Shown here in pieces: positions 41,993 to 60,586 of a stretch of 64,000 bases of DNA. The DNA lies in assembly GCA_046327815.1 (NCBI GenBank), contig JAXLXR010000015.1, positions 28,073 to 92,072 of the forward strand, written 5' to 3'. Source of the stretch: Candidatus Eiseniibacteriota bacterium. GTDB taxonomy: Bacteria > Eisenbacteria > RBG-16-71-46. Position 1 is the stretch's first letter, and each line of letters begins with the position of its first letter. The translations under genes were made by a program, and so were the position numbers. The notes under the pieces are model-generated. The model had not been told where the DNA came from, did no database searches, and saw only the letters and a list, made by a program, of their open reading frames with translations.

Positions 41993-42297
41993 GCGGCCGT
42001 CGGGGTGGATGTCGTGTGGGTCGGGCCACGGCGGGGGCCGGGCCTGCAGCAGGGAACCAGTACGTCTCGCCAACGAGAATCGAGGTCGCTTTCGAGAAGT
42101 GGTGGGCCGACTGACACATCACCCATCCTCGCGCGCAGGGGCGTGCGCACGGGTCCGCCGCTCCGGGCGAGCACCGGGTGCGGAAGGCCCGCCGACACTA
42201 CCCGAGCGGCGCAGGTGGCGACACGAAAATCTGCGGCGCCGGCCGCCTCGACGAATGACTTTGCGCTCGCGCGCCACTGCCCTATCGTGCCGCGCGC

Positions 42298-44586: not shown

Positions 44587-44640
44587 CCGGCGCCGGTTTC
44601 GCCGCACGTTTTCTGCTGCGCCGCGCGACCCCGCGCCGCT

Positions 44641-47409
44641 ATGGTGCCGCCCATGCCCTATTGCTCGCAGTGCGCTCAGGCGTTGTCCGACGCCGCGAAG
44701 TTCTGTCCCGCCTGCGGCGCCGCCGTGGTGCCGCCGACCGCGGTGCCCGCGCCGCACGCGGCCACGAAGCCCGCGCCCACGCGCGCGGCCTCCGACGCGC
44801 CGGTCACGGCCGACCTCACGCGCACCTCCGACCCGAACGCCGCGCCGAGCCTGCCGCCCACCTCGGGCGATCACGGCCGCTTCGAGCCGGGCACGCGGCT
44901 CGGCACGCGCTGGCGCATCGTCGGCCTGCTCGGCCGCGGCGGCATGGGCGAAGTCTATCGCGCCGACGACCTCGAGCTGGGCCAGTCGGTCGCGCTCAAG
45001 TTCCTGCCCGCATCCGTGGCGAACGACTCGCGCGAGCTCGCGCGCTTCCGCAACGAAGTGCGGGTCGCGCGGCAGATCGCGCACCCGAACGTCTGCCGCG
45101 TGTACGACATCGGCGAAGTGGACGGGCACGTATTCCTGTCCATGGAGTACATCGACGGCGAGGACCTCGCCTCGGTGCTGCGCCGCATGGGCCGGCCGAC
45201 CGAGGACAAGGCGGTCGAGATCGCACGCCAGGTCTGCCTCGGGCTCGCGGCCGCGCACGAAGCCGGCATGCTGCACCGCGACCTGAAGCCCGCGAACATC
45301 ATGATCGACGGCCGCGGCCGCGCGCGCATCACCGACTTCGGGCTCGCGGGGCTCGCGAGCGAGCTGGCGCGCGGCGGGCAGGTCGCGGGCACGCCCGCGT
45401 ACATGGCGCCCGAACAGCTCGCCGACGGCACCGTGAGCGTGCGCAGCGACGTCTATTCCCTCGGGCTCGTGCTGTACGAACTGTTCACGGGCAAGCGCGT
45501 GTTCGAGGCGAAGAGCATCGCCGAACTGCGCCAGCAGCACGACTCCAGCTCGATCACCTCGCCCAGTTCGCTCGCGCGCGGCATCACGCCGGCCGTCGAG
45601 CGACTGATCCTGCACTGCCTCGAGCGCGACGTGGACCTGCGCCCGCCGTCGGCGTACGCCGTGCTCGGTGCGCTGCCGGGCGGCGATCCGCTCGCCGCGG
45701 CGATGGCCGCCGGCGAGACGCCGTCGCCCGAACTCGTCGCGAACGCGGCCGAACGCGGCGGGCTCTCGCCACTTCACGCGCTGGCGCTGCTCGTCGTGCT
45801 CGCCGGCGCCCTCGCGGGGCTCGGCGCCATGCTCGGACCGGAGTTCCGGCCGCTCAAGCAGCCCGCCGCCAAGCTCGAGGTGCGCGCGGAGGAAGTGTTG
45901 CGCAAGACCGGCGCGTTCGACGAGCTGCCTGCGCACACCGCCGGCACGTTCTCGCAGAACGACGCCTACCTCGAACATCTCATGAAGGAGAAGCGCGCGC
46001 GCGCCGGCGAGTACGGCACGGCCTTCTACTGGCAGCGCTGGGCGCCGCGGCTGATCGAGAATCCGCGCCTGCACGCCGAGGTCCCGAACCCGGTCGCGCC
46101 CGCGACGCTCGGCAACAGTTCGGCGATCGTGCTGCTCGACCCGAACGGCCGCCTGGTCGGGCTGCGCGCCGAGCCGCCGGACACCGTGAAGGCCCGCAAC
46201 GGCGGGCGGCCGGACTGGAACGGCTGGTTCGCGGCCTTCGGAATGGACAGCAATGCCTACACGCCGGTGCCACTCGTACGCCCCGTGCCCGCGCTCTGCG
46301 ACACCGCGATGGCGTGGCACGGGCCGTCGCCGTGGACCGGAGGCGACACGGCCACGGTACAGATGGGCGCCTCCCGTGGACGGCTGACGCATTTCACGGT
46401 GGTGAGCGACTGGGGCGTGACGAATACGCCGGTGGACGAGCTCGCCCCCGTCACCACGGGACCGTTCGATTTCCTGCTCGAGCTGTTCCTCGACGTGCTG
46501 CCGTACGTGCTCTCGGTCTATTTCGCGTGGCGGAACCTGAAGCTCGGACGCGGCGACTGGCGAGGCGCCACGCGCATCGCGGTGTTCGTGTTCTTCATGA
46601 ACATCGGCGAAGCCGTGTTCTCGAACCGGCTGTCCGAAGTGGGCGTGACCGGCCTGCTCGGCGACCTGTTCAGCGGACGAGCGCAGGGCCACTCGTTGAT
46701 CCACGCGATGGGCATGTGGTTCGCCTACGTGGCGCTGGAGCCCTACGTGCGCCGGTTGTGGCCTCGGCTGCTCGTGTCGTGGACGCGGCTGCTGTCGGGC
46801 CGCTTCCGCGACCCGCTCGTGGGCCGCGACCTGCTCGTGGGCGCCGCGCTCGGCGCGGCCGTGTCCGCACTCTCGATCGCGAACTACGCGATCGCGCCCA
46901 AGCTCGGGCTCGGCTGGGTGCCCGCGCTGGCCTCGTTCTCGCAGTTCGAGGCGCTCACGCCCGGCTACCTGTCGGTCGGGCTCTGCTACTCCGGCTCGAT
47001 CTGCGTGCTGAACGTGCTGCAGGCGCTCTTCGTCCTGCTCATGCTGCGCCTGCTGCTGCGCCACACCGGCATCGCGCTCGCGGCGTGCTTCACGCTGTTC
47101 GCGCTGTCGAACGCCTCGGGTGCCGCGCCGCAGATCGGCTGGAAGCTGGCGCTGCTCGTCGGGATCTGGGGATCGCTGAGCTTCGTGCTGATCCTGCGCG
47201 TGGGCCTGCTCGCCACGGTCGTGGCGGCGTGGACGGGGCTCGTGCTCTCCTATGTGGCCGCGACGCTCGACTTCGGCTCGTGGTACGGCGGGATCGCGCT
47301 GCTGCCGATGGCGCTCGTGTTCGGCATCGCCTCCTGGGGCGCGGTGAACGCGCTCGCGGGCAAGTCGATCCTCGGAGATCCGCTGGAGGAAGCCCCGCGC
47401 GCGAAGTGA
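44641..47409 (+). CDS. Ser/Thr protein kinase with an N-terminal zinc-ribbon and a C-terminal polytopic membrane domain
   Basis: N-terminal CSQCAQ...CPACG zinc-ribbon. Kinase domain LGRGGMGEVYRADD...VALKFL...HRDLKPANIMI...DFGLAG...APEQ. TM LHALALLVVLAGALAGLGAML. Then a ~330-aa region, and a C-terminal cluster of at least six hydrophobic helices (LSVYFAW..., IAVFVFFM..., LALLVGIWGSLSFVLIL..., ALLPMALVFGIASW). Confidence 0.8.
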   Translation: MVPPMPYCSQCAQALSDAAKFCPACGAAVVPPTAVPAPHAATKPAPTRAASDAPVTADLTRTSDPNAAPSLPPTSGDHGRFEPGTRLGTRWRIVGLLGRGGMGEVYRADDLELGQSVALKFLPASVANDSRELARFRNEVRVARQIAHPNVCRVYDIGEVDGHVFLSMEYIDGEDLASVLRRMGRPTEDKAVEIARQVCLGLAAAHEAGMLHRDLKPANIMIDGRGRARITDFGLAGLASELARGGQVAGTPAYMAPEQLADGTVSVRSDVYSLGLVLYELFTGKRVFEAKSIAELRQQHDSSSITSPSSLARGITPAVERLILHCLERDVDLRPPSAYAVLGALPGGDPLAAAMAAGETPSPELVANAAERGGLSPLHALALLVVLAGALAGLGAMLGPEFRPLKQPAAKLEVRAEEVLRKTGAFDELPAHTAGTFSQNDAYLEHLMKEKRARAGEYGTAFYWQRWAPRLIENPRLHAEVPNPVAPATLGNSSAIVLLDPNGRLVGLRAEPPDTVKARNGGRPDWNGWFAAFGMDSNAYTPVPLVRPVPALCDTAMAWHGPSPWTGGDTATVQMGASRGRLTHFTVVSDWGVTNTPVDELAPVTTGPFDFLLELFLDVLPYVLSVYFAWRNLKLGRGDWRGATRIAVFVFFMNIGEAVFSNRLSEVGVTGLLGDLFSGRAQGHSLIHAMGMWFAYVALEPYVRRLWPRLLVSWTRLLSGRFRDPLVGRDLLVGAALGAAVSALSIANYAIAPKLGLGWVPALASFSQFEALTPGYLSVGLCYSGSICVLNVLQALFVLLMLRLLLRHTGIALAACFTLFALSNASGAAPQIGWKLALLVGIWGSLSFVLILRVGLLATVVAAWTGLVLSYVAATLDFGSWYGGIALLPMALVFGIASWGAVNALAGKSILGDPLEEAPRAK

Positions 47410-47419
47410 CGCGCGCGGG

Positions 47420-50128
47420 CTACTTCGCCTTCAGTCCGCGCTTCCAGTCCGAGACCAAAACCACGGGCGCCGCGCCTTCGGAGGCGAGCGCGTTGACCAG
47501 GATGTGCTCGCCGTCCGGCGAAACCGCGAAGCTGCGGCTGGTCGGTCGCACGATCGCGCGGAACAGCACGCCTTCCTCTCCCGCGTGGCCGTCGCGCCGG
47601 TCGAACGGCACCGAGCACACCGCGCCGTCGGCGCGTACGTAGACCAGTTCGCGATCGTCCAGGCCCCAGCACGGGATCGCGCCTCCGTGGAACGTGGCCT
47701 GCACCCGCGGACCGTCGACTCCGCCGATCGCCCACGACGCCGGGCGCACGTACACCTCGGGATTGCCCGAGTCGTGCGACGCGGAATACGCGAACCAGCG
47801 CCCGTCGTGAGAGAAGCGCCCGAACGTCACGCCCCCCGGAATCGCGGCGATCGGCCGCGACGCCGAGCCGTCCACGGGCACGAACAGCAGGGAGTCGCCC
47901 ACGTAGCTCGCGGCCGATCCGAGCACCGCGACGACGCCGCTGCCGTCGGGCGCCCAGTCGAGCGCCCACGCGTCGCGCGGCGACACCCGCACGAGCCGCG
48001 GCGGCACGCTGCCGTCGAGCGGCACGAACACGGGCGAGTACGGGCCGAAACGTGACGCGGGCTGGCGCGCGAACGTGACCCAGCGGCCGTCGCGGCTCGC
48101 GATCGGCATGTTGTCGTCGTCCTCGCCGGTCGTGATCGGGCGCACGGTGCCACGCGCGAAGTCGAACTGGTAGACGTCGGCATTCGGCTTCTCGGCCCAC
48201 GCGAACAGGAAGCTGCGCCCGTCGGGCATGAACTCGACGTCGAAGAAGTTGCCGCTCCTCGGCACGGTCGTCGTGCGGTGGCCGGTGCGGTCGTAGAGCC
48301 ACACGCGGCTGCCCTGGTCGCCACCGTTCGCCTGGTACGCCAGCAGCCCGCCGGCCGCGGAGAAGTTCATCTTCCACGTGGACAGGTCGAACTGCACGCG
48401 TTCGGCCGTCGGGTACGAGTCGCCTTGGAGCCGCCGCGAGCCCGCATCGAACGGCTGCGCCATGAGCACGCTGTCGCGCACGAAGAACAGGCGCCCCTCG
48501 GCATAGACCGCGTCGGTGAGGTTGTCGAACAGCCGGCGGTTCTCGCGGCCGTCCACCGACGCGACCCAGACCGAGTTGTTCGGGCCCGCCGGCGCGTCGT
48601 GCGATCCGGCGAAGTACAGGAAGTGCTTGCCGTCGGGAAGCAGGGACGGCCAGCGCAGCGTGGTGAAACGCGTCGTGTCGAGCGGCACCGCGAGCTGCGG
48701 CGTGCCGCCGCTCGCCTTCACGCGGTAGATCGCCGACTGGTAGTAAGGCGAAAAGAGGATTTCGTCGTCCTTCGCCCACGTCCCGCCCCGCCCCGCCTGC
48801 GCTTCGCAGATCGCGAGCACCTGCCCCGTCGCGAGGTCCACGCGCCGCAGCTTGAGACCGGCGAAGAATCCCAGCGAGCGGCCGTCGTACGACCAGAACG
48901 GGAACGTCGCGTTCTCGGTCCCCGGCAGCGGCCGCGCGACCAGCTCGTCCACGTCGCGCACCCACAACCGCGCGCCGACCTCGTTGTCCACCGCGACGAA
49001 CGCCAGCCGCGTGCCGTCGGGCGACAGCACGGGCGGTCCGGCGTTGTCGCCCGTGAACAGGAACACCGCGTTCGGCGGCGGGTTCACCACCGCGCGCAGT
49101 GCCGTGCGCGAGGGCGCCGGGCGCCACGTGGCGAACGCACCCCAGCCGAGCGCGGCCACCGCGAGCGCCGCCAGGGCGGGCACCGTCCACGCACTCGCGC
49201 GACGCGGCGTGACTGCGGCGGAAGGCGCGCCGGCCTGCGAGCCGCCGCCGCCCTCGCCCAGCCACTGCAGCTGCAGCCGCACGTCGTGCGCGGTCTGGAT
49301 GCGCTCGTCGGGCTCCTTGGCGAGCAGAGCGGTCACGAGGCGCGCGAGCGGCGGCGGGCTCATCGGCGCGAGCTCGGCGAGCGGTCGCGGCGTGTCGCGC
49401 ATGATCGCGCTGATGAGCGACGCCTGCGTGCGGCCTTCGTACGCGCGCACGCCCGTGATCATCTCGTACAGCACGCAACCGAACGCCCACAGGTCGCTGC
49501 GCGCGTCGGCCTCGCGGCCTTCGAGCTGCTCGGGCGCCATGTACTGGAACGTGCCGACGATCGCGCCTTCGGCGGTGAGCGGCGACGCCACGGTCGGGTG
49601 CTGCGTGAGCGCGGTCATGGTGGCGCCGCTGCCGCTCACGGGCCCGGCGGCGGCCGTGGCGCGCGCGAGGCCGAAATCCATGAGCTTGGCGCCCGAGCGC
49701 GTCACCATGACGTTGCCGGGCTTGAGATCGCGGTGCACCACGCCCGCGCGGTGCGCGCGGTCGAGCGCGTCGGCGATCTGCGCGCCGAGCCGCAGCACGT
49801 CGGCGAGCGGGAGCGCGCCACGGCGCAGCCGGGCCGCGAGCGTCTCGCCCTCGACCAGCTCCATCACGAGGAAGTCGGTCTCGCCTTCGCGCCCGACGTC
49901 GTGCAGCACGCAGATGTTCGGGTGGTTCAGCCCCGAGATGGTCTTCGCCTCGCGCTCGAAGCGTGCCCGCACCTCGGGGTGCGCGCTCAGGTGCTGCGGC
50001 AGGACCTTGATGGCGACCTCGCGGCCGAGCCGTGCGTCGCGGGCGCGGTACACCTCGCCCATGCCGCCGGCGCCGAGCGGCGCGACGATTTCGTAGGGGC
50101 CGAGCTTCGTACCCGCGGCCAGCGTCAT
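47420..50128 (-). CDS. Ser/Thr protein kinase with a TM helix and a C-terminal TolB/PD40-type beta-propeller ectodomain
   Basis: MTLAAGTKLGPYEIVAPLGAGGMGEVYRARDARLGREVAIKVL. Kinase motifs conserved. TM AWTVPALAALAVAALGWGAFA. Propeller repeats (SPDGTRLAF, SYDGRSLGF, LPDGKHFLYF). Convergent with 44641..47409, with only ~10 nt between the stops. Confidence 0.9.
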   Translation of the reverse strand: MTLAAGTKLGPYEIVAPLGAGGMGEVYRARDARLGREVAIKVLPQHLSAHPEVRARFEREAKTISGLNHPNICVLHDVGREGETDFLVMELVEGETLAARLRRGALPLADVLRLGAQIADALDRAHRAGVVHRDLKPGNVMVTRSGAKLMDFGLARATAAAGPVSGSGATMTALTQHPTVASPLTAEGAIVGTFQYMAPEQLEGREADARSDLWAFGCVLYEMITGVRAYEGRTQASLISAIMRDTPRPLAELAPMSPPPLARLVTALLAKEPDERIQTAHDVRLQLQWLGEGGGGSQAGAPSAAVTPRRASAWTVPALAALAVAALGWGAFATWRPAPSRTALRAVVNPPPNAVFLFTGDNAGPPVLSPDGTRLAFVAVDNEVGARLWVRDVDELVARPLPGTENATFPFWSYDGRSLGFFAGLKLRRVDLATGQVLAICEAQAGRGGTWAKDDEILFSPYYQSAIYRVKASGGTPQLAVPLDTTRFTTLRWPSLLPDGKHFLYFAGSHDAPAGPNNSVWVASVDGRENRRLFDNLTDAVYAEGRLFFVRDSVLMAQPFDAGSRRLQGDSYPTAERVQFDLSTWKMNFSAAGGLLAYQANGGDQGSRVWLYDRTGHRTTTVPRSGNFFDVEFMPDGRSFLFAWAEKPNADVYQFDFARGTVRPITTGEDDDNMPIASRDGRWVTFARQPASRFGPYSPVFVPLDGSVPPRLVRVSPRDAWALDWAPDGSGVVAVLGSAASYVGDSLLFVPVDGSASRPIAAIPGGVTFGRFSHDGRWFAYSASHDSGNPEVYVRPASWAIGGVDGPRVQATFHGGAIPCWGLDDRELVYVRADGAVCSVPFDRRDGHAGEEGVLFRAIVRPTSRSFAVSPDGEHILVNALASEGAAPVVLVSDWKRGLKAK

Positions 50129-52380
50129 GGCTTCACCCTCCCGAACACCTCACGCACGCGTGGATCCGCGAGCAGGTCGTCGAAGAACGGCATGTGCGGG
50201 GCGACGACGAAGATCGAGTCGCGCTCCTCGTAGCCGCGCTCGGTCCATGCGAGCGCCTCGTCGGCGAGCCCCGCCGCGCACGCCGCCTTGGCGATCATGA
50301 GCGGCGAGAGCACTTCCCAGCGCGCACGTGCCGTCATCTCGTCGTGGATCGCGCGCGCATCTTCCGGCCGCCCGAGCTTGCCCGCGAGCCACGCGAGCGC
50401 GCCGAGGATCCAGGGATGCCGCCCGCTCGACGCCAGCCGGCGGCGCCCGAACGCCTCGGCCTCCTCGTGCGCTCCCGCCCACGACAGCGCGCGCACCAGG
50501 TTCCACTGCGCGAACGTCGAGTCCTCGTCCTTCGCGGCCGCACGACGTGCGACGGCGAGTGATTCGGCGTGGTACCCCGCATGACCGACCACGAACGAGT
50601 GCATGCCCAGCGCCCACGAGTTCTCGGGGTCGGCGGCGACGGTGGCCTCGGCTTCGCGCAGGGCTTCGTCGATCGGCACCGTGCCGAGCGCCCAGCCCCA
50701 GAGCGCGCGCTCGAGCCGCGCACGCGTGTGGCGCGGGTCGAGCGCGAGCGTACGCTGCCACAGCGCCTCGGCTTCGGCCGGCTTCCACTCGTACTGCGCC
50801 TCGATGTCGGCGAGCGTCGCGAGCGCCTCGGGCAGGTGCGGCTGCAGCGCCAGCGCGCGCTGGGCGAGTGCCTTGGCCTTCGGGTACAGCTCTCGCGGGT
50901 GCCCGACGCCGAACGTGCCGAGCAGGCGCCACGAGTCGGCGAGCCACGCGAGCGCCTCGGCGTACCCGGGATCGAGCGCGACCGCCTGCTCGAACAGGTC
51001 GATCGCATCCATCAGGTAGCGGCCGCGGCGCAGCTGCAGCGCTCGGCCCTTGAGGAACAGTTCGTACGCGCGCACGTTCTTCGTGCCGTGGCGCGACGCC
51101 TCGCTCCCGCCGAGCGACAGCCGGAGCTTCTCGGAGATCGCCGCGGCGATCTCGTCCTGCACCGCGAACACGTCGGTCAGTTCGCGATCGTAGCGTTCGG
51201 ACCACAGCGTGAGACCGTCGTTCACGTTCACGAGCTGCACCGTCACGCGCAGCCGCGCGCCGGCGCGGCGCACGGTGCCTTCGAGCACGGTCTGCACGCC
51301 GAGCTTCGCGCCCACCGTGCGCGGGTCCTCGCGACGGCCCTTGAACGCGAAGCTCGACGAACGTGCGGCTACGCGCAGGCCCTTGAGCTGCGCGAGCGCG
51401 TTGAGGATCTCGTCGCTCATGCCGTCGGCGAAGTACTCGTCGTCGGCGCCGCCCTGGTTCTCGAACGGCAGCACCGCGAGCGAATGCGCGGCCTCGGCTC
51501 CGGCGCCGGCCGCCGGTCGCGACGCGGCCTCCGCCAGTTCAAGCCGCACGTCGCGAATGTCGCGCGGGCGTTCGTCGGCGTTCTTGCGCAGGCAGCGGCG
51601 CAGCAGTTCGGTCACCCGCGGCGGCGTGGCCGCCGGCAGCGCGGCCCAGTCGGGTTCGCGCTCGAGGATGCGCGCGAGCAGGTCGGTCACCGTCTCGCCT
51701 TCGAACGGCGGACGGCCCGCGAGGCACTCGTAGAGCACGCAGCCGAACGACCACACGTCGCTGCGGCGGTCCACCGCGCGGCCGCGCGCCTGCTCGGGGC
51801 TCATGTACGCCGCGGTACCCAGGATCACGCCGGCCTCGGTCGGCGAGGCCGAAATGCTGCGCGTGACGTCGTCGTGCGAAGCCGTGCGCGGCGGCTCGGC
51901 GAGCTCGGACTTGGCGAGCCCGAAGTCGAGCACCTTGGCGATGCCCGACGACGTCACCATGACGTTGCCCGGCTTGAGATCGCGATGCACGAGGCTGCGC
52001 TCGTGCGCGGCCTCGACGGCGGCGGCGACCTGCCCGGCGAGCGCGAGCGCCTCGCCCACCGGCAGCGCACCGCGGCCCAGCCGCGCGGCCAGCGTTTCGC
52101 CTTCGACCAGCTCGAGCACGAGGCAGGGCGCTTCGCCCGACTCCTCGAGCCCGTAGATCGCCGCGACGTTCGGGTGGTTGAGCGCGGCCAGCGCCATGGC
52201 TTCGCGCCGGAAGCGTGCGAGCCGCTCGGCGTCGCGCGAGAAGGCGGCCGGCAGCACCTTGAGCGCCACGTCGCGGCCCAGCCGCGTGTCGCGGGCGCGA
52301 TACACCTCGCCCATGCCGCCGGCGCCCAGGGGCGCGACGACTTCGTAGGGGCCGAGGCGGGTGCCGGGGGTCAGTGGCAT
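50125..52380 (-). CDS. Ser/Thr protein kinase with a C-terminal TolB-N-like alpha/beta module and TPR repeats
   Basis: MPLTPGTRLGPYEVVAPLGAGGMGEVYRARD, HRDLKPGNVMV, DFGLAK. Followed by LAVLPFENQGGADDEYFADGMSDEILNALAQLKGLRVAARSSSFAFKG (the same module as in 42298..44586) and TPR-like helices to the C-terminus. The stop makes an ATGA overlap with the start of 47420..50128. Confidence 0.85.
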   Translation of the reverse strand: MPLTPGTRLGPYEVVAPLGAGGMGEVYRARDTRLGRDVALKVLPAAFSRDAERLARFRREAMALAALNHPNVAAIYGLEESGEAPCLVLELVEGETLAARLGRGALPVGEALALAGQVAAAVEAAHERSLVHRDLKPGNVMVTSSGIAKVLDFGLAKSELAEPPRTASHDDVTRSISASPTEAGVILGTAAYMSPEQARGRAVDRRSDVWSFGCVLYECLAGRPPFEGETVTDLLARILEREPDWAALPAATPPRVTELLRRCLRKNADERPRDIRDVRLELAEAASRPAAGAGAEAAHSLAVLPFENQGGADDEYFADGMSDEILNALAQLKGLRVAARSSSFAFKGRREDPRTVGAKLGVQTVLEGTVRRAGARLRVTVQLVNVNDGLTLWSERYDRELTDVFAVQDEIAAAISEKLRLSLGGSEASRHGTKNVRAYELFLKGRALQLRRGRYLMDAIDLFEQAVALDPGYAEALAWLADSWRLLGTFGVGHPRELYPKAKALAQRALALQPHLPEALATLADIEAQYEWKPAEAEALWQRTLALDPRHTRARLERALWGWALGTVPIDEALREAEATVAADPENSWALGMHSFVVGHAGYHAESLAVARRAAAKDEDSTFAQWNLVRALSWAGAHEEAEAFGRRRLASSGRHPWILGALAWLAGKLGRPEDARAIHDEMTARARWEVLSPLMIAKAACAAGLADEALAWTERGYEERDSIFVVAPHMPFFDDLLADPRVREVFGRVKP

Positions 52381-52441
52381 CCGCGCACGCTACCCAAGAA
52401 CGCGCTCCGCCGATACCGGAAAGCGGGCGGCAGTGGCGACC

Positions 52442-53236
52442 TCAGAAGCGCGTCCGCACGCGCGCGACGGCACCCCCGCGCGCCGGCCAGATCGCGGCCG
52501 CCACGCCCGCGGGCAACGCCCGCTGTGCCCAGCGATCGGTCGCGAACGCCACGCCGGTGCCGATCGCCGCGCCGGCGGCCACGTCGCTCGGCCAGTGCAC
52601 GTGGTCGTGGACGCGCGACCAGCCGGTGGCCGCCGCCAGCGGGTACGCGATCGCCGGCACCCAGTGCGAACGCGTCTCCGCGTCGAGCGCACCGGCGAGC
52701 GAGAACGCCATGGTCGTGTGCCCGGACGGGAAGCTGTCGTGCCCCGAGAACGGCTCGAAACGCCGGGGATCGGCGTCCTCGTGCGGGCGCCAGCGTCCCG
52801 CGGCGTTCTTGAGCGCCAGCGTGACGAGTCCCGCGCTCGCGCAGGAGAGCGCCACGCGCTCGGTCGCCGCGGCGAGCCGCGGCCGTCCCGCCAGCCGCGC
52901 GCCGGCGTCCACGGCGAGCAGCGCCGGCGCGACCGCGAGGTGGTTGCCGAACTGCTTCGCCACGCGCGCCGCGTCGCGGGCGCCGTCGCCGCCGGACGCC
53001 GCCAGCGCCCGCGACCAGCGCGCGTCGTTCGCGGCGCAGAGCGCGATCGCGGCCGTGCTTCCCGCCGCGAACGCCAGCACGGCGCGGCGCGACGGCAGCG
53101 GCAGCACGTCCGTCGCGGCGGCGGGCCCCGGCTCGGCGTGAACGCCGCACGGCGCGCCCGCGAGCGCGACCGCGAGCACGAGGGCACAGCCGAGCGCGCG
53201 GCGCACGAGGACGCGCGCGCGCCCCCGCGTGCTCAC
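52442..53236 (-). CDS. PAP2-family (type 2 phosphatidic-acid-phosphatase-like) membrane/periplasmic phosphatase
   Basis: GTG start VSTRGRARVLVRRALGCALVLAVALAGAPCGVHA (signal-like) at 53236, making a GTGA overlap with the upstream PP2C gene. PAP2 motifs KNAAGRWRP (KxxxxxxRP), PSGH and SRVHDHVHWPSD (SRxxxxxHxxxD). The track's 380-aa N-terminal extension is rejected. Confidence 0.7.
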   Translation of the reverse strand: MSTRGRARVLVRRALGCALVLAVALAGAPCGVHAEPGPAAATDVLPLPSRRAVLAFAAGSTAAIALCAANDARWSRALAASGGDGARDAARVAKQFGNHLAVAPALLAVDAGARLAGRPRLAAATERVALSCASAGLVTLALKNAAGRWRPHEDADPRRFEPFSGHDSFPSGHTTMAFSLAGALDAETRSHWVPAIAYPLAAATGWSRVHDHVHWPSDVAAGAAIGTGVAFATDRWAQRALPAGVAAAIWPARGGAVARVRTRF

Positions 53237-54852
53237 GCGCGCCGCACCATCACCAGCGTGATGTCGTCCGCGCGCGGCGTGCCGGCCGCGAACGCGTCCA
53301 CGGCGGTGATCACGTCGCGCGTGGCGGCGTCGAGATCGGGCGCGGCGGACGCCTTCGCGAGCACGTCGGCCAGGCGGTCGTCGCCGAAGAAGTCCTCGCC
53401 GCACATGGCCTCGGGAATGCCGTCGCTGTACAGCGCGAGCGTCTCGCCCGGCGCGAGCGTGGTGTGCGCGGCCGTGAACGGGAAGCTCTCCATCATGGCG
53501 ACGGGAATGCCGGTGGCCTCGAGTTCGCGCTTGCCGCCGGGCCCGATCACGTAGGGCGCGTTGTGTCCCGCGTTGCAGTAGTGCAGCTCGCCGGTCTGCG
53601 GGTCGAGGCAGCCGACGAACAGCGTCACGAACCGGCCCGCTTCGGTGGAGCGGAACAGCACGTCGTTCAGGCGCGTGACGAGTTCGGCCGGATCGGTCGT
53701 CGCGTTGTAGAGCACGCGCGCGCTGGTCACCGTGGACGACATGAGCAGTGCGGCGCCCATGCCCTTGCCCGACACGTCGCCGACCACGATCACCCAGCGG
53801 CCGTCCGAACGCGGGAAGAAGTCGTACAGGTCGCCGCCGACCTCGAAGCAGGTCTCGATGCGCGCGGCGAGCTGCCAGCCGGGCAGCGGCGGCGCGGGCG
53901 GCAGCAGCGAGCGCTGGATGCGCGTCGCCGTGGCGAGCTCCTGCGCCATGCGCTGGCGGTGCGCCTCGGACTCGAGCAGGCGGGCATTGCTGATCTTCAC
54001 GGCGGCCATGTTCGCCAGCACCGTGAACACTTCGAGGTGGTCTTCGTTGTACTCGACGCGCAGGTCGGTCGTGTCGGCGTAGAGCACGCCGAGCACCTTC
54101 TCGTTGTCGAAGAGCGGCACGGCCATGGCCGAGCGGATCGCCTGCGTCATGATGCTCTCGTGCGCGGAGAACCGCGGGTCCTCGGAGGCGTCCTTGGTGA
54201 CCACCGACTCGCACTCGTCGAGCACCGTGCGCAGGATCGTGCTGGAAAGCGCGAGCGGTTCGCGCGTGGGCACGCCGAGGTGCCGCACGGCGATCTGCTG
54301 CGGCTCCTCGCCCGGCTTGTCGCGCAGCAGGATCACCAGCCGGCGCGCGGGCACGGCGCGCTCGACCACGCGCAGCACTTCCTCGCACGTCTCGCGCAGC
54401 GGCCGCGGCAGCACGAGCATCTGCCCGGCTTCGGCCAGCAGCGCCACGAGGCGCGAGCTTTCGGAGCTCCTGCTGGCCGCCTTGTGGATGATGTCCTTGG
54501 CGCCCTTGCGCACGGCCGAGCCCAGCCCGGTGGACTCGCTGAAGCGCGTCGCGTCGGTCTTCGCCTCGAGCTCGAAGCGCGACTGGATCTGCCCGAACTC
54601 GACCATGTCGCCGGGGCGCAGTTTGACCGTGTCGTGCACGTCGGTGCCGTTCAGGCGCGTGCCGTTGCGGCTGCCGAGGTCGCGCAGCGTCCAGCCGTTC
54701 AGGTCGAACGCCAGTTCGGCGTGCTCCTTGGAGACGGTCGGGTCGGCGATCTGGATGTCGCAGCGCGACGAGCGCCCGACCCGGTAAAGTTCACCGTCCA
54801 GCGGCCAGGATTTGCGCAGTCCTTCGACGGTGACCGTGATCTGGAAACCCAT
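53233..54852 (-). CDS. FHA-domain / GAF-domain / PP2C-type (SpoIIE-like PPM) protein phosphatase
   Basis: Real start MGFQITVTVEG at 54852. N-terminal FHA (YRVGRSSRCDIQIADPTVSKEHAEL...GSRNGTRLNG). Central GAF-like region. C-terminal PPM motifs GGDLYDF, VVGDVSGKGMGAALLMS, GHNAPY and ALYSDGIPEA. The track's 468-aa N-terminal extension is rejected. Confidence 0.85.
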   Translation of the reverse strand: MGFQITVTVEGLRKSWPLDGELYRVGRSSRCDIQIADPTVSKEHAELAFDLNGWTLRDLGSRNGTRLNGTDVHDTVKLRPGDMVEFGQIQSRFELEAKTDATRFSESTGLGSAVRKGAKDIIHKAASRSSESSRLVALLAEAGQMLVLPRPLRETCEEVLRVVERAVPARRLVILLRDKPGEEPQQIAVRHLGVPTREPLALSSTILRTVLDECESVVTKDASEDPRFSAHESIMTQAIRSAMAVPLFDNEKVLGVLYADTTDLRVEYNEDHLEVFTVLANMAAVKISNARLLESEAHRQRMAQELATATRIQRSLLPPAPPLPGWQLAARIETCFEVGGDLYDFFPRSDGRWVIVVGDVSGKGMGAALLMSSTVTSARVLYNATTDPAELVTRLNDVLFRSTEAGRFVTLFVGCLDPQTGELHYCNAGHNAPYVIGPGGKRELEATGIPVAMMESFPFTAAHTTLAPGETLALYSDGIPEAMCGEDFFGDDRLADVLAKASAAPDLDAATRDVITAVDAFAAGTPRADDITLVMVRRA

Positions 54853-55050
54853 GACTCTCCCCGGGCGAGCGTGACGTCTTCGGCAATGGGCAGCCGGCAC
54901 GAGCCCGCACTGTAGCCGAGCGGGACCGGTCCCCGACACCCGAAAAGCGCCGCGCGGCGACCCTGCCGCGTTAGGACTTCCCCGCGCGAGCGTAGGTGGG
55001 GGGACGACCCGCCATCCGGCGGCGCCCCACTTCCTCGCACGGAGACCCCG

Positions 55051-55932
55051 ATGACGCCCCGCGCCCTGCCCGTGTTCGCACTTGCGCTCCTGTTCGCGTC
55101 GGCCCTGGCCGTCACCCGCCCCGCGGGGGCGGTGAACCTGGTCCCGAACCCGAGCTTCGAGACGTACACGACCTGCCCGCCCGGCTGGGGCCAGCTCAAC
55201 GTGCTCGCGCCGTGGGACACGCCCAACACCGGCACGTCGGACGCGTTCCACGCGTGCGCCCCGAACGTGTTTCCCAGCGTCAGCGTGCCGCAGAACCAGA
55301 TCGGCTGGCAGGCCGCGAACTCGGGCTCGGGCTACGCCGGCCTGATCCCCTACTCGGCCGCGCCCGACTACCGCGAGTACCTGTCGGCGCCGCTCACCCA
55401 GCCTCTGCTGCCGGGCATGCCGTACACGTTCACGTTCCACGTCTCGCTCGCCGACAGCGCCATGCTCGCGCTGGACCGGCTCGGCGCGTACTTCTCGGTG
55501 GGTCCGGTCGGGCCGCTCAACAACTACGCCGCACTGCCGTTCACGCCGCAGGTCGAGAGCGCCGCGAACGTGTTCCTCACGAACGCCGCCGGCTGGACCG
55601 CGATCACCGGCACGTTCGTCGCGGCGGGCGGCGAGAACTGGATCACGATCGGCAACTTCCACGACGACGCGAGCACGAACCTCACGCCCGGCCCGGGCAC
55701 GTGGCCCGGCGGCTCGTACTACTACGTGGACGACGTGAGCGTCGAACCGGCGCTGCCGACCGAGCAGGCGTGCTGCCTCGGCGACGGCTCGTGCTCGATG
55801 CAGTTCCCGGGCGAATGCTCGCTGCTGGGCGGCACGCCCGCGGGCCCCGGCACGACGTGCGCGGGCGGCGCGTGCACGCCGACGAACACGCGGCGCGGCA
55901 CGTGGGGCGCGCTCAAGGCGTACTACCGGTAA
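55051..55932 (+). CDS. Secreted protein with a CBM4_9-like N-terminal beta-sandwich and a Cys-rich C-terminal tail
   Basis: Signal peptide MTPRALPVFALALLFASALAVTRPAGA. Start of the mature protein VNLVPNPSFE...GW resembles the opening strand of CBM4_9 carbohydrate-binding modules. C-terminal CCLGDGSCSMQFPGECSLLGGTPAGPGTTCAGGACTPTNTRRGTWGALKAYYR. Confidence 0.55.
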   Translation: MTPRALPVFALALLFASALAVTRPAGAVNLVPNPSFETYTTCPPGWGQLNVLAPWDTPNTGTSDAFHACAPNVFPSVSVPQNQIGWQAANSGSGYAGLIPYSAAPDYREYLSAPLTQPLLPGMPYTFTFHVSLADSAMLALDRLGAYFSVGPVGPLNNYAALPFTPQVESAANVFLTNAAGWTAITGTFVAAGGENWITIGNFHDDASTNLTPGPGTWPGGSYYYVDDVSVEPALPTEQACCLGDGSCSMQFPGECSLLGGTPAGPGTTCAGGACTPTNTRRGTWGALKAYYR

Positions 55933-58036: not shown

Positions 58037-58123
58037 TGGCGCCGGGACCGGGAATCGAACCCGGACGGGATTGCTCCCAGCGGATTTTAAGTCCGCTGCG
58101 TCTGCCAGTTTCGCCATCCCGGC
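58037..58123 (-). tRNA. tRNA-Leu (anticodon UAA), type II with a long variable arm, CCA encoded
   Basis: Reverse complement reads GCCGGGATGGCGAAACTGGCAGACGCAGCGGACTTAAAATCCGCTGGGAGCAATCCCGTCCGGGTTCGATTCCCGGTCCCGGCGCCA. The 7-bp acceptor stem is GCCGGGA/TCCCGGC. The anticodon stem-loop is GCGGA-CTTAAAA-TCCGC with TAA at loop positions 3-5. T-loop TTCGATT. 87 nt. Confidence 0.85.
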
Positions 58124-58222: not shown

Positions 58223-59479
58223 TCAGTGCCCGTGGCCGCCCGCACCCTCTAACACGTCCACCACGCGGACCACCGGGTATCGCGCGAGGAAGTTCTGCAC
58301 CGCGAAGCCGAACAGGCCCACGAAGCCCAGCGTCACACCGATCTCCGGCAGGCCGACCCACACCTGCTCGGCGTTCAGCGACGGCATCACCAGCACGTGG
58401 CGCTCGACCCAGATGCCGACCATCGCGATGATCGCGAACGTCGAGAGCAGCGCGGGATTGGTCTTGCTGGTCTTGTTCAGCATGCCGAGGAACGGAATCA
58501 CGAAGATGAGCGTGAACGCGACGAACGACAGCGTCCGCCACGGCTCCTCGAAGCGCACGAACACCCACCACGTCTCTTCCGGCATGTTCGCGTACCAGAT
58601 CGGCAGGTACTGCGACCAGAACAGGTAGCCCCAGAACACGCACCAGGCGAACAGCACCTTGCCGATGTCCCAGAACATGTTCGACGTGATGTAGGCCTCG
58701 AGCTTGTAGCGCGCGCGCAGCTGCGTCGCGAGCAGGCTGGTCATGGCGACGGCCGTGATGAACGCGCCCGCGTACACCCACCAGCCGAACAGGCCCGACA
58801 CCCAGTTGGGCGTGAGCGCCATGATGAAGTCCCACGCCATCACCGAGAACAGCACCACGAACAGCAGCGCGAGCTGAGGCGCGAGGTGCGCGGACTCGTG
58901 GCGCGCCCACTCCATCTCGGCCTGGTCGCCCTTCCAGTTCGCGGTCTGCTTCTCGTAGTCGGCCTTCAGCGCACCGTCCACGTACGGCTTGATCGCCTGC
59001 AGGTCGCGGCGCATGGACACGTGCACCAGCTTCTTCGCGAGCACCCAGAACAGCAGCAGGCCGCCGAGCGTACGCACGTACAGGAACGGAACGTTGAGGA
59101 ACGGCGCCTGGCGCGGCTCGACGTGCTTGATCCACGGCAGGTACGTCCAGATGCCGGCGAACAGCAGCACGGCCATGGTCGCGATGCCGAACGGCAGGTA
59201 CGCCGAGAACGATTCGGCGATGCGCATGATCGGTCCGCCCCACCGGCCGTTGGCCAGCCGGATGGCGCACGCGAGCGCGATGCCGCCCATGGCGATGCCG
59301 AGGAAGTAGAGCGTGTTGATCGTCCACGCGCCCCACGCCCGCAGCGGGTTGGTCATGAACAGGTAGCCGAAGGCGGCGAGCCCGACCACGATCAGCGCGA
59401 TCCAGATCTGTCGCTTCTGGGCGCTCGGCTGGACCGGCAGCTTGCCGGCGATATCCCGGAGAACGGCCTCGTGGCTCAT
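58223..59479 (-). CDS. actF: Alternative complex III subunit F (NrfD/PsrC-like polytopic membrane subunit)
   Basis: Start MSHEAVLRDIAGK at 59479, making an ATGA overlap with the actE stop. About ten hydrophobic helices. W/Y-rich NrfD-like protein encoded downstream of actBCDE. Confidence 0.7.
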   Translation of the reverse strand: MSHEAVLRDIAGKLPVQPSAQKRQIWIALIVVGLAAFGYLFMTNPLRAWGAWTINTLYFLGIAMGGIALACAIRLANGRWGGPIMRIAESFSAYLPFGIATMAVLLFAGIWTYLPWIKHVEPRQAPFLNVPFLYVRTLGGLLLFWVLAKKLVHVSMRRDLQAIKPYVDGALKADYEKQTANWKGDQAEMEWARHESAHLAPQLALLFVVLFSVMAWDFIMALTPNWVSGLFGWWVYAGAFITAVAMTSLLATQLRARYKLEAYITSNMFWDIGKVLFAWCVFWGYLFWSQYLPIWYANMPEETWWVFVRFEEPWRTLSFVAFTLIFVIPFLGMLNKTSKTNPALLSTFAIIAMVGIWVERHVLVMPSLNAEQVWVGLPEIGVTLGFVGLFGFAVQNFLARYPVVRVVDVLEGAGGHGH

Positions 59480-60045
59480 CGCGGACTGACCTTCTGCTGT
59501 TGGCGGATGTAGTGGATCAGGTCCCACGCGTCGTGGGCGGAGAGCGCGTTGCCGAACGAGGGCATCACGACGCCGCCGTGCCGCATGTAGGAGTAGATGA
59601 ACCCGTCCGTACGTTCACGGGTGGACTGCGCCAGCAGGTCGGGCGGGGGCATGAACTGCGCGGCCACCGGACCGTCGCCCGCCATGGTCTTGCCGTGGCA
59701 CGTCCAGCAGATCGTGTGGAACAGCGTGTCGCCCCGCACGATCGAAGCCTCGTCGGACGGGAAGGGCTCGCGGATCACGAGCGTCGCCGCCGGATCGTAG
59801 GGCGCCTCGCCGATGTACAGGTCCCGGCCGATGCCGGCGACGGCGAGCGAATCCGGTCCGCGGAACGTGGTGACCTTGGGATTCAGCGGGTCGCCGCGCT
59901 GCGGGTCGATCGCGATCGTCTGCCGCATGTCGCGGATCGGGTAGTACGACCAGTGCGTGAGCGACTTGGTCACGTCCTGGCAGCCCTGCTGGAACGACAC
60001 GGACCACAGCGCGATCACGCCGATGAGGAGCTTGGCCTTAAGCAT
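59476..60045 (-). CDS. actE: Alternative complex III subunit E (monoheme cytochrome c lipoprotein)
   Basis: Signal/lipobox MLKAKLLIGVIALWSVSFQQGCQ. Single CxxCH heme motif CWTCHGK. ~189 aa. Positioned between actD and actF. Confidence 0.7.
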   Translation of the reverse strand: MLKAKLLIGVIALWSVSFQQGCQDVTKSLTHWSYYPIRDMRQTIAIDPQRGDPLNPKVTTFRGPDSLAVAGIGRDLYIGEAPYDPAATLVIREPFPSDEASIVRGDTLFHTICWTCHGKTMAGDGPVAAQFMPPPDLLAQSTRERTDGFIYSYMRHGGVVMPSFGNALSAHDAWDLIHYIRQQQKVSPR

Positions 60046-60586
60046 GGACCTGCACCTCCTCGGCCGCGTGGCCCTTCATGAGCTGCTCGATCTTGGCGGC
60101 CTCGGCGGCGGAACACGGCACCCAGATGCCGATGCGGTCTTCCTGGAAGCGCGGATCGTAGGGCGCGACCTGCTTGATCTGCGGCAGGCGGCCCAGCGCG
60201 AGCATGCCGAGCAGGTTCGAGAGCCCGGCGATCAGGATCATGGACTCGTAGCCGATGACCGTCATGGGCGGAACCGAGAACAGTTCCTTGCCGCCGATCA
60301 CGAGCGGCCACGAGGCGATCGAGTAGAAGCAGAGCGCGAAGCCGCCCGTGGCGCCGAGGAAGCCGCCGACCGCGGTCACCCAGCGCACCAGCGAGGGCCC
60401 CTGCTCCAGCGCGTGCTCGATCTCGTGGTGCGGCACGGGCGAGAACACGTTGAGCTGCTTGTGCCCCGCGCCCCGCAGCGTCTTCACGGCGTCGGCCGCG
60501 TCGTCCACGTAGTACCAGATGCCCATCACGCCGTGGAACTTCGGCGCGGGCGGGTTCAGGAGTCCGTCGATCATCTTGAGGATCAT
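60038..60586 (-). CDS. actD: Alternative complex III subunit D (DUF3341-like small membrane subunit)
   Basis: Real start MILKMIDGLLNPPAPKFHGVMGIWYYVDD at 60586 (ATGA overlap with the actC stop). The track's upstream extension is rejected. ~182 aa with two central TM helices (WVTAVGGFLGATGGFALCFY..., MILIAGLSNLLGMLALG). Confidence 0.65.
   Translation of the reverse strand: MILKMIDGLLNPPAPKFHGVMGIWYYVDDAADAVKTLRGAGHKQLNVFSPVPHHEIEHALEQGPSLVRWVTAVGGFLGATGGFALCFYSIASWPLVIGGKELFSVPPMTVIGYESMILIAGLSNLLGMLALGRLPQIKQVAPYDPRFQEDRIGIWVPCSAAEAAKIEQLMKGHAAEEVQVHA

What the first reader, a model, noticed from the sequence alone, without database searches (positions are those of the whole stretch)
52442..54852. 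FHA-GAF-PP2C phosphatase translationally coupled to a secreted PAP2 phosphatase immediately after the kinase array
The PP2C protein carries a phospho-Thr-reading FHA domain and a small-molecule-binding GAF domain. It is an obvious antagonist or reader for the nine kinases. Its stop overlaps the GTG start of a PAP2 lipid or undecaprenyl-phosphate phosphatase with a signal-like N-terminus. Together with the upstream DUF2723 PMT-like glycosyltransferase (26990..28531), this hints that the kinase battery monitors or controls envelope lipid-linked glycan metabolism.
Basis: inference. Interest (0 to 1): 0.55.

Follow-up and report, generated by a model that had tools for sequence, protein, structure and literature searches.

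The report
FHA-GAF phosphatase with clade-specific PAP2 partner
A well-conserved signalling phosphatase of an uncultured soil phylum (Eisenbacteria) lies next to nine protein kinases and overlaps a lipid-phosphatase gene by four bases. That lipid phosphatase is a recent add-on found only in a few close relatives, so the locus is an ordinary kinase/phosphatase neighbourhood, not a new envelope-control system.

Summary
On the minus strand, 53233..54852 encodes a 539-aa FHA-GAF-PPM phosphatase. 52442..53236 encodes a 264-aa PAP2 phosphatase with all three catalytic motifs and a signal-like N-terminus. The GTG start of the PAP2 gene overlaps the PP2C TGA stop (GTGA).

In the direction of transcription the pair lies at the head of a co-directional cluster PP2C-PAP2-kinase-kinase, not after the array.

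The source is a Candidatus Eisenbacteria MAG. The PP2C is a core gene of the phylum: 80 species loci, 33-79% identity. A Hanks kinase is directly adjacent in 16 of 80 loci, about 3-fold more often than in the local background. This gives moderate support to a role in kinase signalling. However, the catalytic domain is of the RsbU/SpoIIE type, whose known substrates are STAS proteins.

The PAP2 follows the PP2C only in one shallow clade, always with the GTGA overlap. It is absent from the closest relative (94% PP2C identity), where a kinase starts 22 nt after the PP2C stop. It is also absent from the other 77 species loci. More distant PAP2 homologues lie in unrelated contexts.

The proposed link to envelope glycan metabolism has no support.

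Verdict: a new member of known kinds, of low to moderate interest.

The parts
53233..54852 (-). FHA-GAF-PPM (SpoIIE/RsbU-type PP2C) phosphatase gene, 539 aa, cytoplasmic
   Evidence: ORF and Shine-Dalgarno-like GGGGAGAG. Pfam. A 100% identical NCBI protein, P0001. AF2 model with pLDDT 80.
54592..54786 (-). FHA domain (aa 23-87). The pThr-binding residues G26, R27, S41, H44 and N63 are invariant in 23 orthologues.
   Evidence: Foldseek matches to GarA, Ki67 and Rv0020c FHA domains with TMt 0.8-0.9.
54475..54561 (-). Disordered FHA-GAF linker (aa 98-126) that contains a conserved T-[QR]-[FW]-S-x-S motif. It may be a phospho-acceptor or a cis ligand of the FHA domain (inference).
   Evidence: pLDDT below 50. 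The motif is present in 20 of 23 orthologues.
53992..54399 (-). GAF domain (aa 152-287) of the NifA/PtsP-like type with a D-x-x-DPRF motif. A 47-residue helix (aa 270-316) follows and leads into the catalytic domain.
53239..53808 (-). PPM catalytic domain (aa 349-538) of the SpoIIE/RsbU clade. The acidic motifs GGDLYD, GDVSGKG, SDG and DDIT are conserved.
   Evidence: PF07228, 167.9 bits. Invariant D341, D344, D359, D477, D529 and D530. PDB matches to RssB, Rv1364c, SiaA and SpoIIE.
53233..53236 (-). GTGA: the PAP2 GTG start overlaps the PP2C TGA stop. This is a likely site of translational coupling.
   Evidence: The same GTGA junction is found in L001, L002, L003 and L086.
52442..53236 (-). 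PAP2-superfamily phosphatase gene, 264 aa
   Evidence: PF01569, E 9.1e-24. Catalytic motifs. A 100% identical NCBI protein, P0121. AF2 model with pLDDT 84.5. dN/dS 0.29-0.50.
53135..53236 (-). Signal-peptide-like N-terminus of PAP2 (aa 1-34): five Arg, a hydrophobic core and VHA|EP
   Evidence: An equivalent segment is present in 48 of 54 subfamily members.
52583..52810 (-). PAP2 catalytic motifs C1 (K143-x6-RP), C2 (PSGH) and C3 (SR-x5-H-x3-D)
   Evidence: Invariant across 19 homologues.
52445..52504 (-). C-terminal beta-hairpin of PAP2 that ends in ...RTRF. It is a hallmark of the subfamily and its role is unknown.
   Evidence: DSSP strands at aa 245-252 and 255-262. 47 of 54 members end in F, W or Y.
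52381..52441 (-). 61-nt spacer between PAP2 and the downstream kinase. No terminator-like site was found in it.
50125..52380 (-). Hanks Ser/Thr kinase with a TPR C-terminal region, co-directional with the pair and downstream of PAP2
47420..50128 (-). Hanks Ser/Thr kinase with a PD40 beta-propeller region. An ATGA overlap joins it to the preceding kinase.
54853..55050 (.). Divergent intergenic region between the PP2C gene and a conserved 293-aa secreted protein gene. It is the presumed promoter region. No sigma-70 consensus was found.

Best explanation
The 539-aa protein is a cytoplasmic, metal-dependent Ser/Thr phosphatase that is conserved across Eisenbacteria.

Proposed mechanism:
- The N-terminal FHA domain docks on phospho-threonine sites made by Hanks-type membrane kinases, either on the autophosphorylated kinases themselves or on their substrates.
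- The GAF domain and the long helix after it act as a dimerising or allosteric input.
- The RsbU/SpoIIE-type PPM domain removes the phosphate.
- It therefore works like a kinase-docking FHA-PP2C, as in plant KAPP or Deinococcus DRA0334, and resets signalling from the expanded set of receptor-like kinases.

In this genome the gene heads a co-directional cluster PP2C-PAP2-kinase-kinase.

The PAP2 gene is a catalytically competent, exported or membrane-embedded lipid-phosphate phosphatase of the LpxE/PgpB/UppP type; its substrate is unresolved. It entered the slot directly behind the PP2C gene in a shallow clade. It is expressed by termination-reinitiation at the GTGA overlap, and it was lost again in the nearest relative. 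It is best read as a lineage-specific passenger of the operon, not as a conserved part of the kinase system.

Shown: the domains, motifs, overlap, phyletic pattern and the enrichment of kinases next to the gene.
Inferred: the substrates, the docking, co-transcription and translational coupling.
For: Domains and catalytic or ligand-binding residues are intact and invariant.

The PP2C is a phylum-wide orthologue of about 540 aa. More than 2000 hits have E<=1e-10, and 80 species loci were recovered.

A kinase HMM finds a Hanks kinase at position -1 or +1 in 17 of 149 slots, against 15 of 416 genes beyond +-3 (odds ratio 3.4, p 0.0014). These kinases are often on the same strand, at -4 to 39 nt. 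The pattern holds in lineages as distant as Krumholzibacteriia (L073, L078).

In the closest relative, L088 (94% identity), a kinase ATG lies 22 nt after the PP2C stop.

No STAS or RsbW family recurs among 117 small neighbouring ORFs.

A bacterial FHA-PP2C that acts on Ser/Thr kinases from the same operon is reported in bioRxiv 10.64898/2026.01.23.701218.

PAP2 evidence. The GTGA overlap is conserved in L001, L002, L003 and L086. The PAP2 is present only in that clade and the window. The NJ tree implies one gain and one loss. GC3 of 0.95 equals that of the host genes, and dN/dS is 0.29-0.50. The fold is closest to LpxE (6ebu) and B. subtilis PgpB (5jki).
Against: The PPM domain is of the RsbU/SpoIIE type. 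PF07228 matches and no PP2C PF00481 hit appears. The best PDB matches are RssB, Rv1364c, SiaA and SpoIIE. The characterised substrates of this type are STAS-like partner-switch proteins, not Hanks kinases, and PMC2887360 states that it is unclear whether such phosphatases oppose eukaryotic-like kinases.

58 of 80 loci have no kinase within three genes.

The enrichment test is not corrected for phylogeny, and its background comes from the same loci.

The adjacent kinases are different paralogues, not one conserved partner.

There are no transcript data, so the operon and the coupling are inferred from spacing alone.
Confidence: 0.55

Rival explanations
1. The protein is a partner-switching phosphatase. 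Like RsbU, SpoIIE or SiaA, it dephosphorylates a phospho-STAS-like antagonist encoded elsewhere in the genome. The FHA domain serves only as an input that senses kinase activity, and the kinases next to it are neighbours by chance in kinase-rich genomes.
For: The subfamily assignment by HMM, sequence and fold points to RsbU, RssB, Rv1364c, SiaA and SpoIIE. [quoted passage not shown] Most orthologue loci lack kinases.
Against: No STAS or HATPase_c_2 family recurs among 117 small ORFs within 10 kb in 80 loci (singletons cannot be excluded). Kinases are the only signalling genes enriched next to it. The intact FHA domain implies a direct link to pThr produced by Hanks kinases.
Confidence: 0.25
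2. PP2C and PAP2 form a functional module through which the kinase battery monitors or controls lipid-linked glycan or undecaprenyl-phosphate metabolism in the envelope, together with the TMEM260-like glycosyltransferase.
For: The GTGA overlap is conserved within the clade. The PAP2 is catalytically intact and under purifying selection. Weak sub-threshold profile similarity to undecaprenyl-diphosphatases is seen. The kinases carry periplasmic PD40 or TPR sensor regions.
Against: The PAP2 is absent next to the PP2C in 77 of 80 species loci, and in the nearest relative L088 and in L004/L089. More distant PAP2 homologues lie in unrelated contexts. No equivalog cut-off is reached: 35.6 bits against 229. 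The glycosyltransferase is 24 kb away, convergent with the far end of the array, and has no homologue in 89 related loci. The PAP2 evolves 2-5 times faster than the PP2C at non-synonymous sites.
Confidence: 0.1
3. The PAP2 ORF is a spurious reading frame produced by the high G+C content, and the overlap has no meaning.
For: At 72-80% G+C, long ORFs occur in many frames. The coding score per codon is lower than for the neighbouring genes.
Against: PF01569 matches at E 9.1e-24, and all three catalytic motifs are invariant in 19 homologues. The profile finds 1506 cluster representatives at E<=1e-30. The AF2 model is confident. GC3 is 0.95 in this frame. dN/dS is below 1.
Confidence: 0.01

Closest known systems
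KAPP (plant kinase-associated protein phosphatase) and Deinococcus radiodurans DRA0334 (KI-FHA + PP2C; bioRxiv 10.64898/2026.01.23.701218)
   Same: An FHA domain lies N-terminal to a PPM phosphatase domain. The gene lies next to or in an operon with Ser/Thr kinases. The predicted logic is that the FHA domain docks on phosphorylated receptor-like kinases and the PPM domain dephosphorylates them.
   Different: The catalytic domain here is SpoIIE/RsbU-type (PF07228), not classical PP2C (PF00481). A GAF domain and a 47-residue helix are inserted between the FHA and PPM domains. No biochemical data exist for this protein.
RsbU / SpoIIE / SiaA / Rv1364c / P. aeruginosa RssB partner-switching PPM phosphatases
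   Same: These are the best sequence and fold matches for the catalytic domain. They share the layout of an N-terminal sensory module that regulates a C-terminal PPM domain.
   Different: Those proteins act on STAS-like substrates that are usually encoded nearby. Here no STAS or RsbW genes recur in 80 neighbourhoods, and the input domain is an FHA domain that reads pThr.
Actinobacterial FhaA-FhaB-PstP-...-PknA-PknB cluster
   Same: It also combines FHA reader(s), one PPM phosphatase and membrane Hanks kinases in one conserved neighbourhood that is tied to the envelope.
   Different: In that cluster the FHA and phosphatase functions are separate proteins, PstP is a classical membrane-anchored PP2C, and the cluster is stably syntenic. 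Here the neighbourhood is highly variable.
Membrane PAP2 lipid phosphatases: Aquifex LpxE (6ebu; trifunctional, PMC6581854), B. subtilis PgpB/YodM (5jki), E. coli PgpB, YbjG
   Same: The KX6RP, PSGH and SRX5HX3D motifs are shared. These are the best Foldseek matches, with TMt 0.76 and 0.67, and the best sequence match in the PDB.
   Different: No equivalog threshold is met. This protein also has a signal-peptide-like N-terminus, a disordered linker and a C-terminal beta-hairpin ending in Phe, none of which those enzymes have. Its hydropathy is only borderline for several helices, so its topology and substrate are unresolved.

Membership tests
PPM phosphatase, SpoIIE/RsbU subfamily (PF07228) | Profile match above the curated threshold over the full domain | tested here: met
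   167.9 bits against a cut-off of 25; model positions 1-191 of 192.
PPM phosphatase, SpoIIE/RsbU subfamily (PF07228) | Conserved metal-coordinating acidic motifs (GGDxYD, GDVxGKG, xDG, DDxT) | tested here: met
   D341, D344, D359, D477, D529 and D530 are invariant in 23 orthologues.
PPM phosphatase, SpoIIE/RsbU subfamily (PF07228) | Fold of the RsbU/SpoIIE-type PP2C domain | tested here: met
   Foldseek matches RssB 3f79 (TMt 0.81), SiaA 6k4e (0.80), Rv1364c and SpoIIE. All rank above PstP and STP.
PPM phosphatase, SpoIIE/RsbU subfamily (PF07228) | Substrate is a phospho-STAS antagonist, with partner-switch genes (STAS, RsbW-like kinase) in the neighbourhood | tested here: not met
   No STAS or HATPase_c_2 family is matched by two or more of 117 small ORFs in 80 loci. 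Genes elsewhere in the genome cannot be excluded.
PPM phosphatase, SpoIIE/RsbU subfamily (PF07228) | Mn2+/Mg2+-dependent phosphoserine/threonine phosphatase activity | not testable with these tools
   Requires biochemistry.
FHA domain (PF00498) | Profile match and the pThr-contacting residues (G-R, S-x-x-H, N-G) | tested here: met
   75 bits against a cut-off of 20.7. G26, R27, S41, H44, N63 and G64 are invariant.
FHA domain (PF00498) | Binding of phospho-threonine peptides from Hanks kinases | not testable with these tools
   Requires binding assays.
GAF domain (PF01590) | Profile match above threshold | tested here: met
   54.8 bits against a cut-off of 22.4.
GAF domain (PF01590) | Binds a small-molecule ligand | not testable with these tools
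   Only generic similarity to the NifA and PtsP GAF domains was found, below the equivalog cut-offs.
KAPP/DRA0334-like kinase-docking FHA-PP2C | FHA domain fused N-terminally to a PPM domain | tested here: met
KAPP/DRA0334-like kinase-docking FHA-PP2C | Catalytic domain of the classical PP2C type (PF00481) | tested here: not met
   Only PF07228 is reported at E<=0.01. The protein may work like these phosphatases but is not a member by descent.
KAPP/DRA0334-like kinase-docking FHA-PP2C | Genomic linkage to Ser/Thr kinases | tested here: inconclusive
   Linked here and in 16 of 80 loci directly (22 of 80 within three genes). Odds ratio 3.4, p 0.001, without phylogenetic correction.
PAP2 superfamily (PF01569) | Profile match and the three catalytic motifs KX6RP, PSGH and SRX5HX3D | tested here: met
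   84.1 bits against a cut-off of 27.2. Motifs at residues 143, 170 and 207, invariant in 19 homologues.
Undecaprenyl-diphosphatase / PgpB equivalogs (NF008813 YbjG, NF047884 SepP, NF007975 PgpB) | Score above the NCBIfam equivalog cut-off | tested here: not met
   35.6 against 229 bits, 26.2 against 250, and 20.7 against 261.
Soluble class A acid phosphatases (PhoN/PhoC) | Fold closest to the periplasmic soluble PAP2 enzymes | tested here: inconclusive
   PhoN and PhoC match at TM 0.2-0.5 and rank below LpxE and PgpB. However, a signal-like N-terminus is present and the hydropathy of most helices is borderline.
Translationally coupled operon pair | Stop/start overlap conserved among orthologous pairs | tested here: met
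   GTGA is found in the window, L001, L002, L003 and L086.
Translationally coupled operon pair | Co-transcription and coupled translation | not testable with these tools
   Requires RNA-seq or ribosome profiling. No terminator-like site is predicted between the genes.

The most novel reading that the evidence does not exclude
The FHA-GAF-PPM protein could be the single, phylum-wide 'master' phosphatase that docks through its FHA domain on the many receptor-like Hanks kinases of Eisenbacteria. It might be switched by phosphorylation of the conserved T-[QR]-[FW]-S motif in its disordered linker, which would bind the FHA domain in cis as in GarA.

In the window's clade, its operon would then also set the level of an exported PAP2. 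That PAP2 belongs to a large, undescribed subfamily with a signal peptide, a PAP2 core and a C-terminal beta-hairpin ending in Phe, possibly associated with the outer membrane. This would tie Ser/Thr signalling to remodelling of envelope lipid phosphates.
Probability: 0.12. Interest if true: 0.55.

Novelty: new member of a known kind. Interest (0 to 1): 0.25.

Why it matters
If the docking model holds, this would be a bacterial counterpart of plant KAPP, built on an RsbU-type catalytic domain. That would show that SpoIIE-like phosphatases can be recruited to Hanks-kinase signalling, a question that PMC2887360 leaves open. It would also identify the likely reset enzyme for the large receptor-kinase repertoire of an uncultured soil phylum.

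The PAP2 pairing has only local significance. It illustrates how accessory envelope genes slip into signalling operons and are lost from them.

The PAP2 subfamily with a C-terminal beta-hairpin ending in an aromatic residue may deserve a separate look.

Tried and rejected
- Exact-sequence look-ups of the window's own PP2C and PAP2 found no contig on record. I used relatives instead.
- The word-indexed search for PAP2 returned only 28 homologues, which suggested a rare family. The exhaustive profile search corrected this to 1506 representatives at E<=1e-30.
- Single-linkage clustering of neighbouring genes wrongly chained 270-300-aa non-kinase proteins into the kinase cluster. I replaced it with a kinase-domain HMM.
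- I tested whether one conserved kinase orthologue accompanies the PP2C. No full-length orthologue was found; only the kinase domains are similar.
- I looked for a remnant of the PAP2 gene in L088 and L004. There is none: L004 lacks even the GTG.
- The promoter and terminator scan gave nothing above chance.
- Rfam found only the tRNA.
- I tried to deduce the PAP2 membrane topology from hydropathy and the positive-inside rule. The signal-like N-terminus conflicts with the canonical six-helix orientation, so the topology stays unresolved.
- dN/dS values are inflated because GC3 of about 0.95 compresses dS. I used them only for relative comparison.
Full report
**Observation**

The window has about 72% G+C, and many long ORFs are shadows of real genes on the other strand. 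A codon-position G+C model and Pfam give a consistent gene map.

On the minus strand:
- An ATG at 54852, preceded by GGGGAGAG, opens a 539-aa gene that ends at TGA 53235..53233.
- A GTG at 53236..53234 overlaps that stop (GTGA) and opens a 264-aa gene that ends at 52442.
- 61 nt further on, an ATG at 52380 opens a 751-aa kinase with TPR repeats.
- The stop of that kinase overlaps (ATGA) the start of a 902-aa kinase with PD40 repeats (47420..50128).

Seven more Pkinase genes lie at 28536..47409, five on the minus strand and two on the plus strand, so the count of nine is right.

The PP2C protein has FHA (aa 23-87), GAF (aa 152-287) and SpoIIE-type PPM (aa 349-538) domains, all far above the Pfam thresholds. 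The second protein is a PAP2 (E 9.1e-24) with K143-x6-RP, PSGH170 and SR207-x5-H-x3-D, and with an Arg-rich, hydrophobic, signal-like N-terminus. NCBI annotated identical 539-aa and 264-aa proteins in a Candidatus Eisenbacteria MAG (P0001 and P0121).

In the direction of transcription, the pair is the head of a four-gene co-directional cluster, not its tail.

**The phosphatase**

It is a strongly conserved orthologue across the phylum:
- More than 2000 database hits have E<=1e-10. The top 120 all have the same architecture and a length of about 540 aa.
- 80 species-representative loci were recovered, at 33-79% identity.
- In an alignment of 23 orthologues, the pThr-contacting residues of the FHA domain (G26, R27, S41, H44, N63) are invariant. 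So are the acidic motifs of the PPM domain (GGDLYD, GDVSGKG, SDG, DDIT).

The catalytic domain belongs to the RsbU/SpoIIE clade by three measures: HMM, PDB sequence search (Rv1364c, P. aeruginosa RssB, SpoIIE) and fold (RssB, SiaA, Rv1364c and SpoIIE all rank above PstP and STP).

The AF2 model has pLDDT 80. It shows three folded domains and a 47-residue helix between the GAF and PPM domains. The FHA-GAF linker (aa 98-126) is disordered, yet it holds a T-[QR]-[FW]-S-x-S motif present in 20 of 23 orthologues.

**Neighbourhoods of the phosphatase**

I called genes in the 80 loci and clustered them. The neighbourhood is highly variable and mostly housekeeping: EF-P, ArgJ, dUTPase, an aminotransferase and an amidohydrolase.

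An HMM built from the nine kinase domains of the window gives these counts:
- A Hanks kinase occupies 17 of 149 directly flanking slots, in 16 of 80 loci.
- A kinase lies within three genes in 22 of 80 loci.
- Further out in the same loci, 15 of 416 genes are kinases.

This gives an odds ratio of 3.4 with p = 0.0014, without correction for phylogeny. Adjacent kinases are often on the same strand, at -4 to 39 nt, and occur in lineages as distant as Krumholzibacteriia. They are different paralogues, not one conserved partner.

No STAS or RsbW-type family recurs among the 117 small ORFs of these loci.

Kinases are therefore the only signalling genes enriched beside this phosphatase. That gives moderate support to a role in Hanks-kinase signalling.

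Precedents exist for an FHA domain that docks a PPM phosphatase on phosphorylated kinases. One is plant KAPP. Another is Deinococcus DRA0334, whose KI-FHA-PP2C counteracts Ser/Thr kinases and lies in an operon with one (bioRxiv 10.64898/2026.01.23.701218).

[quoted passage not shown] PMC2887360 explicitly leaves open whether they oppose eukaryotic-like kinases.

**The PAP2 and its link to the phosphatase**

A PAP2 orthologue follows the PP2C gene only in L001, L002 and L003 (PP2C identity 79%) and in two Logan contigs (L086, L087). The junction is always ...acGTGAcc....

It is absent elsewhere:
- Within 10 kb in the other 77 species loci.
- In L004 and L089 (74-75% identity), where the PP2C ends gcCTGA and a convergent kinase follows after 33 nt.
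- In L088, the closest relative (94% identity), where the PP2C TGA is followed after 22 nt by the ATG of a kinase. The first 37 residues of that kinase match the window's kinase at 52380.

An NJ tree of the PP2C proteins places L088 as sister to the window, inside the clade that has the PAP2. This implies one gain at the base of a shallow clade and a later loss.

More distant PAP2 homologues (40-52% identity) lie after glyS, between TonB-dependent receptors, or after an unrelated 521-aa gene.

Synteny shows how the present arrangement arose. In L001, L002, L003, L086 and L087, the PAP2 abuts a convergent kinase that is orthologous to window 42298..44586. Compared with them, the window carries an extra 8 kb or so (44587..52440) holding three kinases. 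The present PP2C-PAP2-kinase-kinase arrangement is therefore recent.

The PAP2 gene has the GC3 of the host (0.95). It is under purifying selection, though relaxed: dN/dS is 0.29-0.50, and dN is 2-5 times that of the PP2C.

Conclusion for this part. The overlap is real and conserved where the gene exists, which fits translational coupling. But the PAP2 is a dispensable, lineage-specific passenger and is not phyletically linked to kinase arrays.

**What kind of PAP2 it is**

No NCBIfam equivalog is reached: YbjG scores 35.6 against a cut-off of 229 bits, and SepP and PgpB score lower. The best PDB sequence match is Aquifex LpxE.

The AF2 model (pLDDT 84.5) is closest to LpxE 6ebu (TMt 0.76) and B. 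subtilis PgpB 5jki (TMt 0.67). Soluble PhoN-type enzymes rank lower. LpxE itself is multifunctional, acting on lipid A 1-phosphate, C55-PP and PGP (PMC6581854). No substrate can therefore be assigned.

Only the N-terminal segment and helix 50-69 are strongly hydrophobic. A cleavable signal peptide also conflicts with the canonical six-helix topology. 'Exported' is reasonable, but 'secreted' as a soluble protein is not shown.

The exhaustive profile search finds 1506 representatives at E<=1e-30. In 54 sampled members, 48 have a signal-like N-terminus and 47 end in F, W or Y after a beta-hairpin. I did not pursue this subfamily trait.

**The envelope-glycan hypothesis**

The TMEM260-like glycosyltransferase (27068..28531, plus strand) is 24 kb away, at the far end of the array. 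It has no homologue in any of the 89 related loci. Given also the phyletic pattern of the PAP2, there is no evidence that the kinase battery controls lipid-linked glycan metabolism.

**Verdict**

The locus holds a conserved FHA-GAF-PPM phosphatase that most likely takes part in Hanks-kinase signalling (confidence about 0.55). The main rival is an RsbU-like partner-switch role (about 0.25).

It also holds a translationally overlapped PAP2 that is specific to a shallow clade.

Both are new members of known kinds. Interest is low to moderate.

Noticed in passing
window 52442..53236 (especially 52445..52504) and proteins P0122-P0294: The PAP2 belongs to a large subfamily, with 1506 50%-identity representatives at E<=1e-30. 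Members share a signal-like N-terminus, a variable linker, the PAP2 core and a C-terminal beta-hairpin that ends in an aromatic residue (43 F, 3 W and 1 Y among 54 sampled). This ending resembles the beta-signal of outer-membrane proteins. Localisation and topology are unresolved.
   Followed up: partly
window 44587..52440, compared with L001, L002, L003, L004, L086 and L087: In these relatives the PP2C gene (with or without the PAP2) directly abuts a convergent kinase orthologous to window 42298..44586. The window has an extra 8 kb or so carrying three kinases, so the kinase array is a hot spot of gain, loss and rearrangement.
   Followed up: partly
window 54475..54561 (PP2C aa 98-126): The disordered FHA-GAF linker (pLDDT below 50) contains a T-[QR]-[FW]-S-x-S motif conserved in 20 of 23 orthologues. 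It could be a phospho-acceptor that binds the FHA domain in cis, as in GarA/OdhI.
   Followed up: no
window 55051..55932 (+): A 293-aa Cys-rich protein with a signal peptide and no Pfam or NCBIfam hit is transcribed divergently from the PP2C gene. It is conserved at 79-84% identity in L001 and L003, and it ends in ...GTWGALKAYYR.
   Followed up: no
L021, L024 and L058 (gene at +1 of the PP2C orthologue); L045 (+2): In several Eisenbacteria, a classical PP2C-type phosphatase gene of about 300 aa lies directly downstream of the FHA-GAF-PPM orthologue.
   Followed up: no
window 58037..58123 (-): tRNA-Leu(TAA), found by both ARAGORN and Rfam. It is the only RNA family hit in the window.
   Followed up: yes
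window 58223..63998 (-): A gene cluster for alternative complex III: ActD, an NrfD-like subunit, a molybdopterin/4Fe-4S subunit and a cytochrome c. It is 89-95% conserved in L001 and L003.
   Followed up: no
window 28536..42073 (-): Five consecutive kinase-PD40 genes of about 900 aa each are joined by 4-nt start/stop overlaps. Their N-terminal kinase domains are 70-85% identical at the DNA level to paralogues in relatives, which suggests tandem duplication and recombination.
   Followed up: partly
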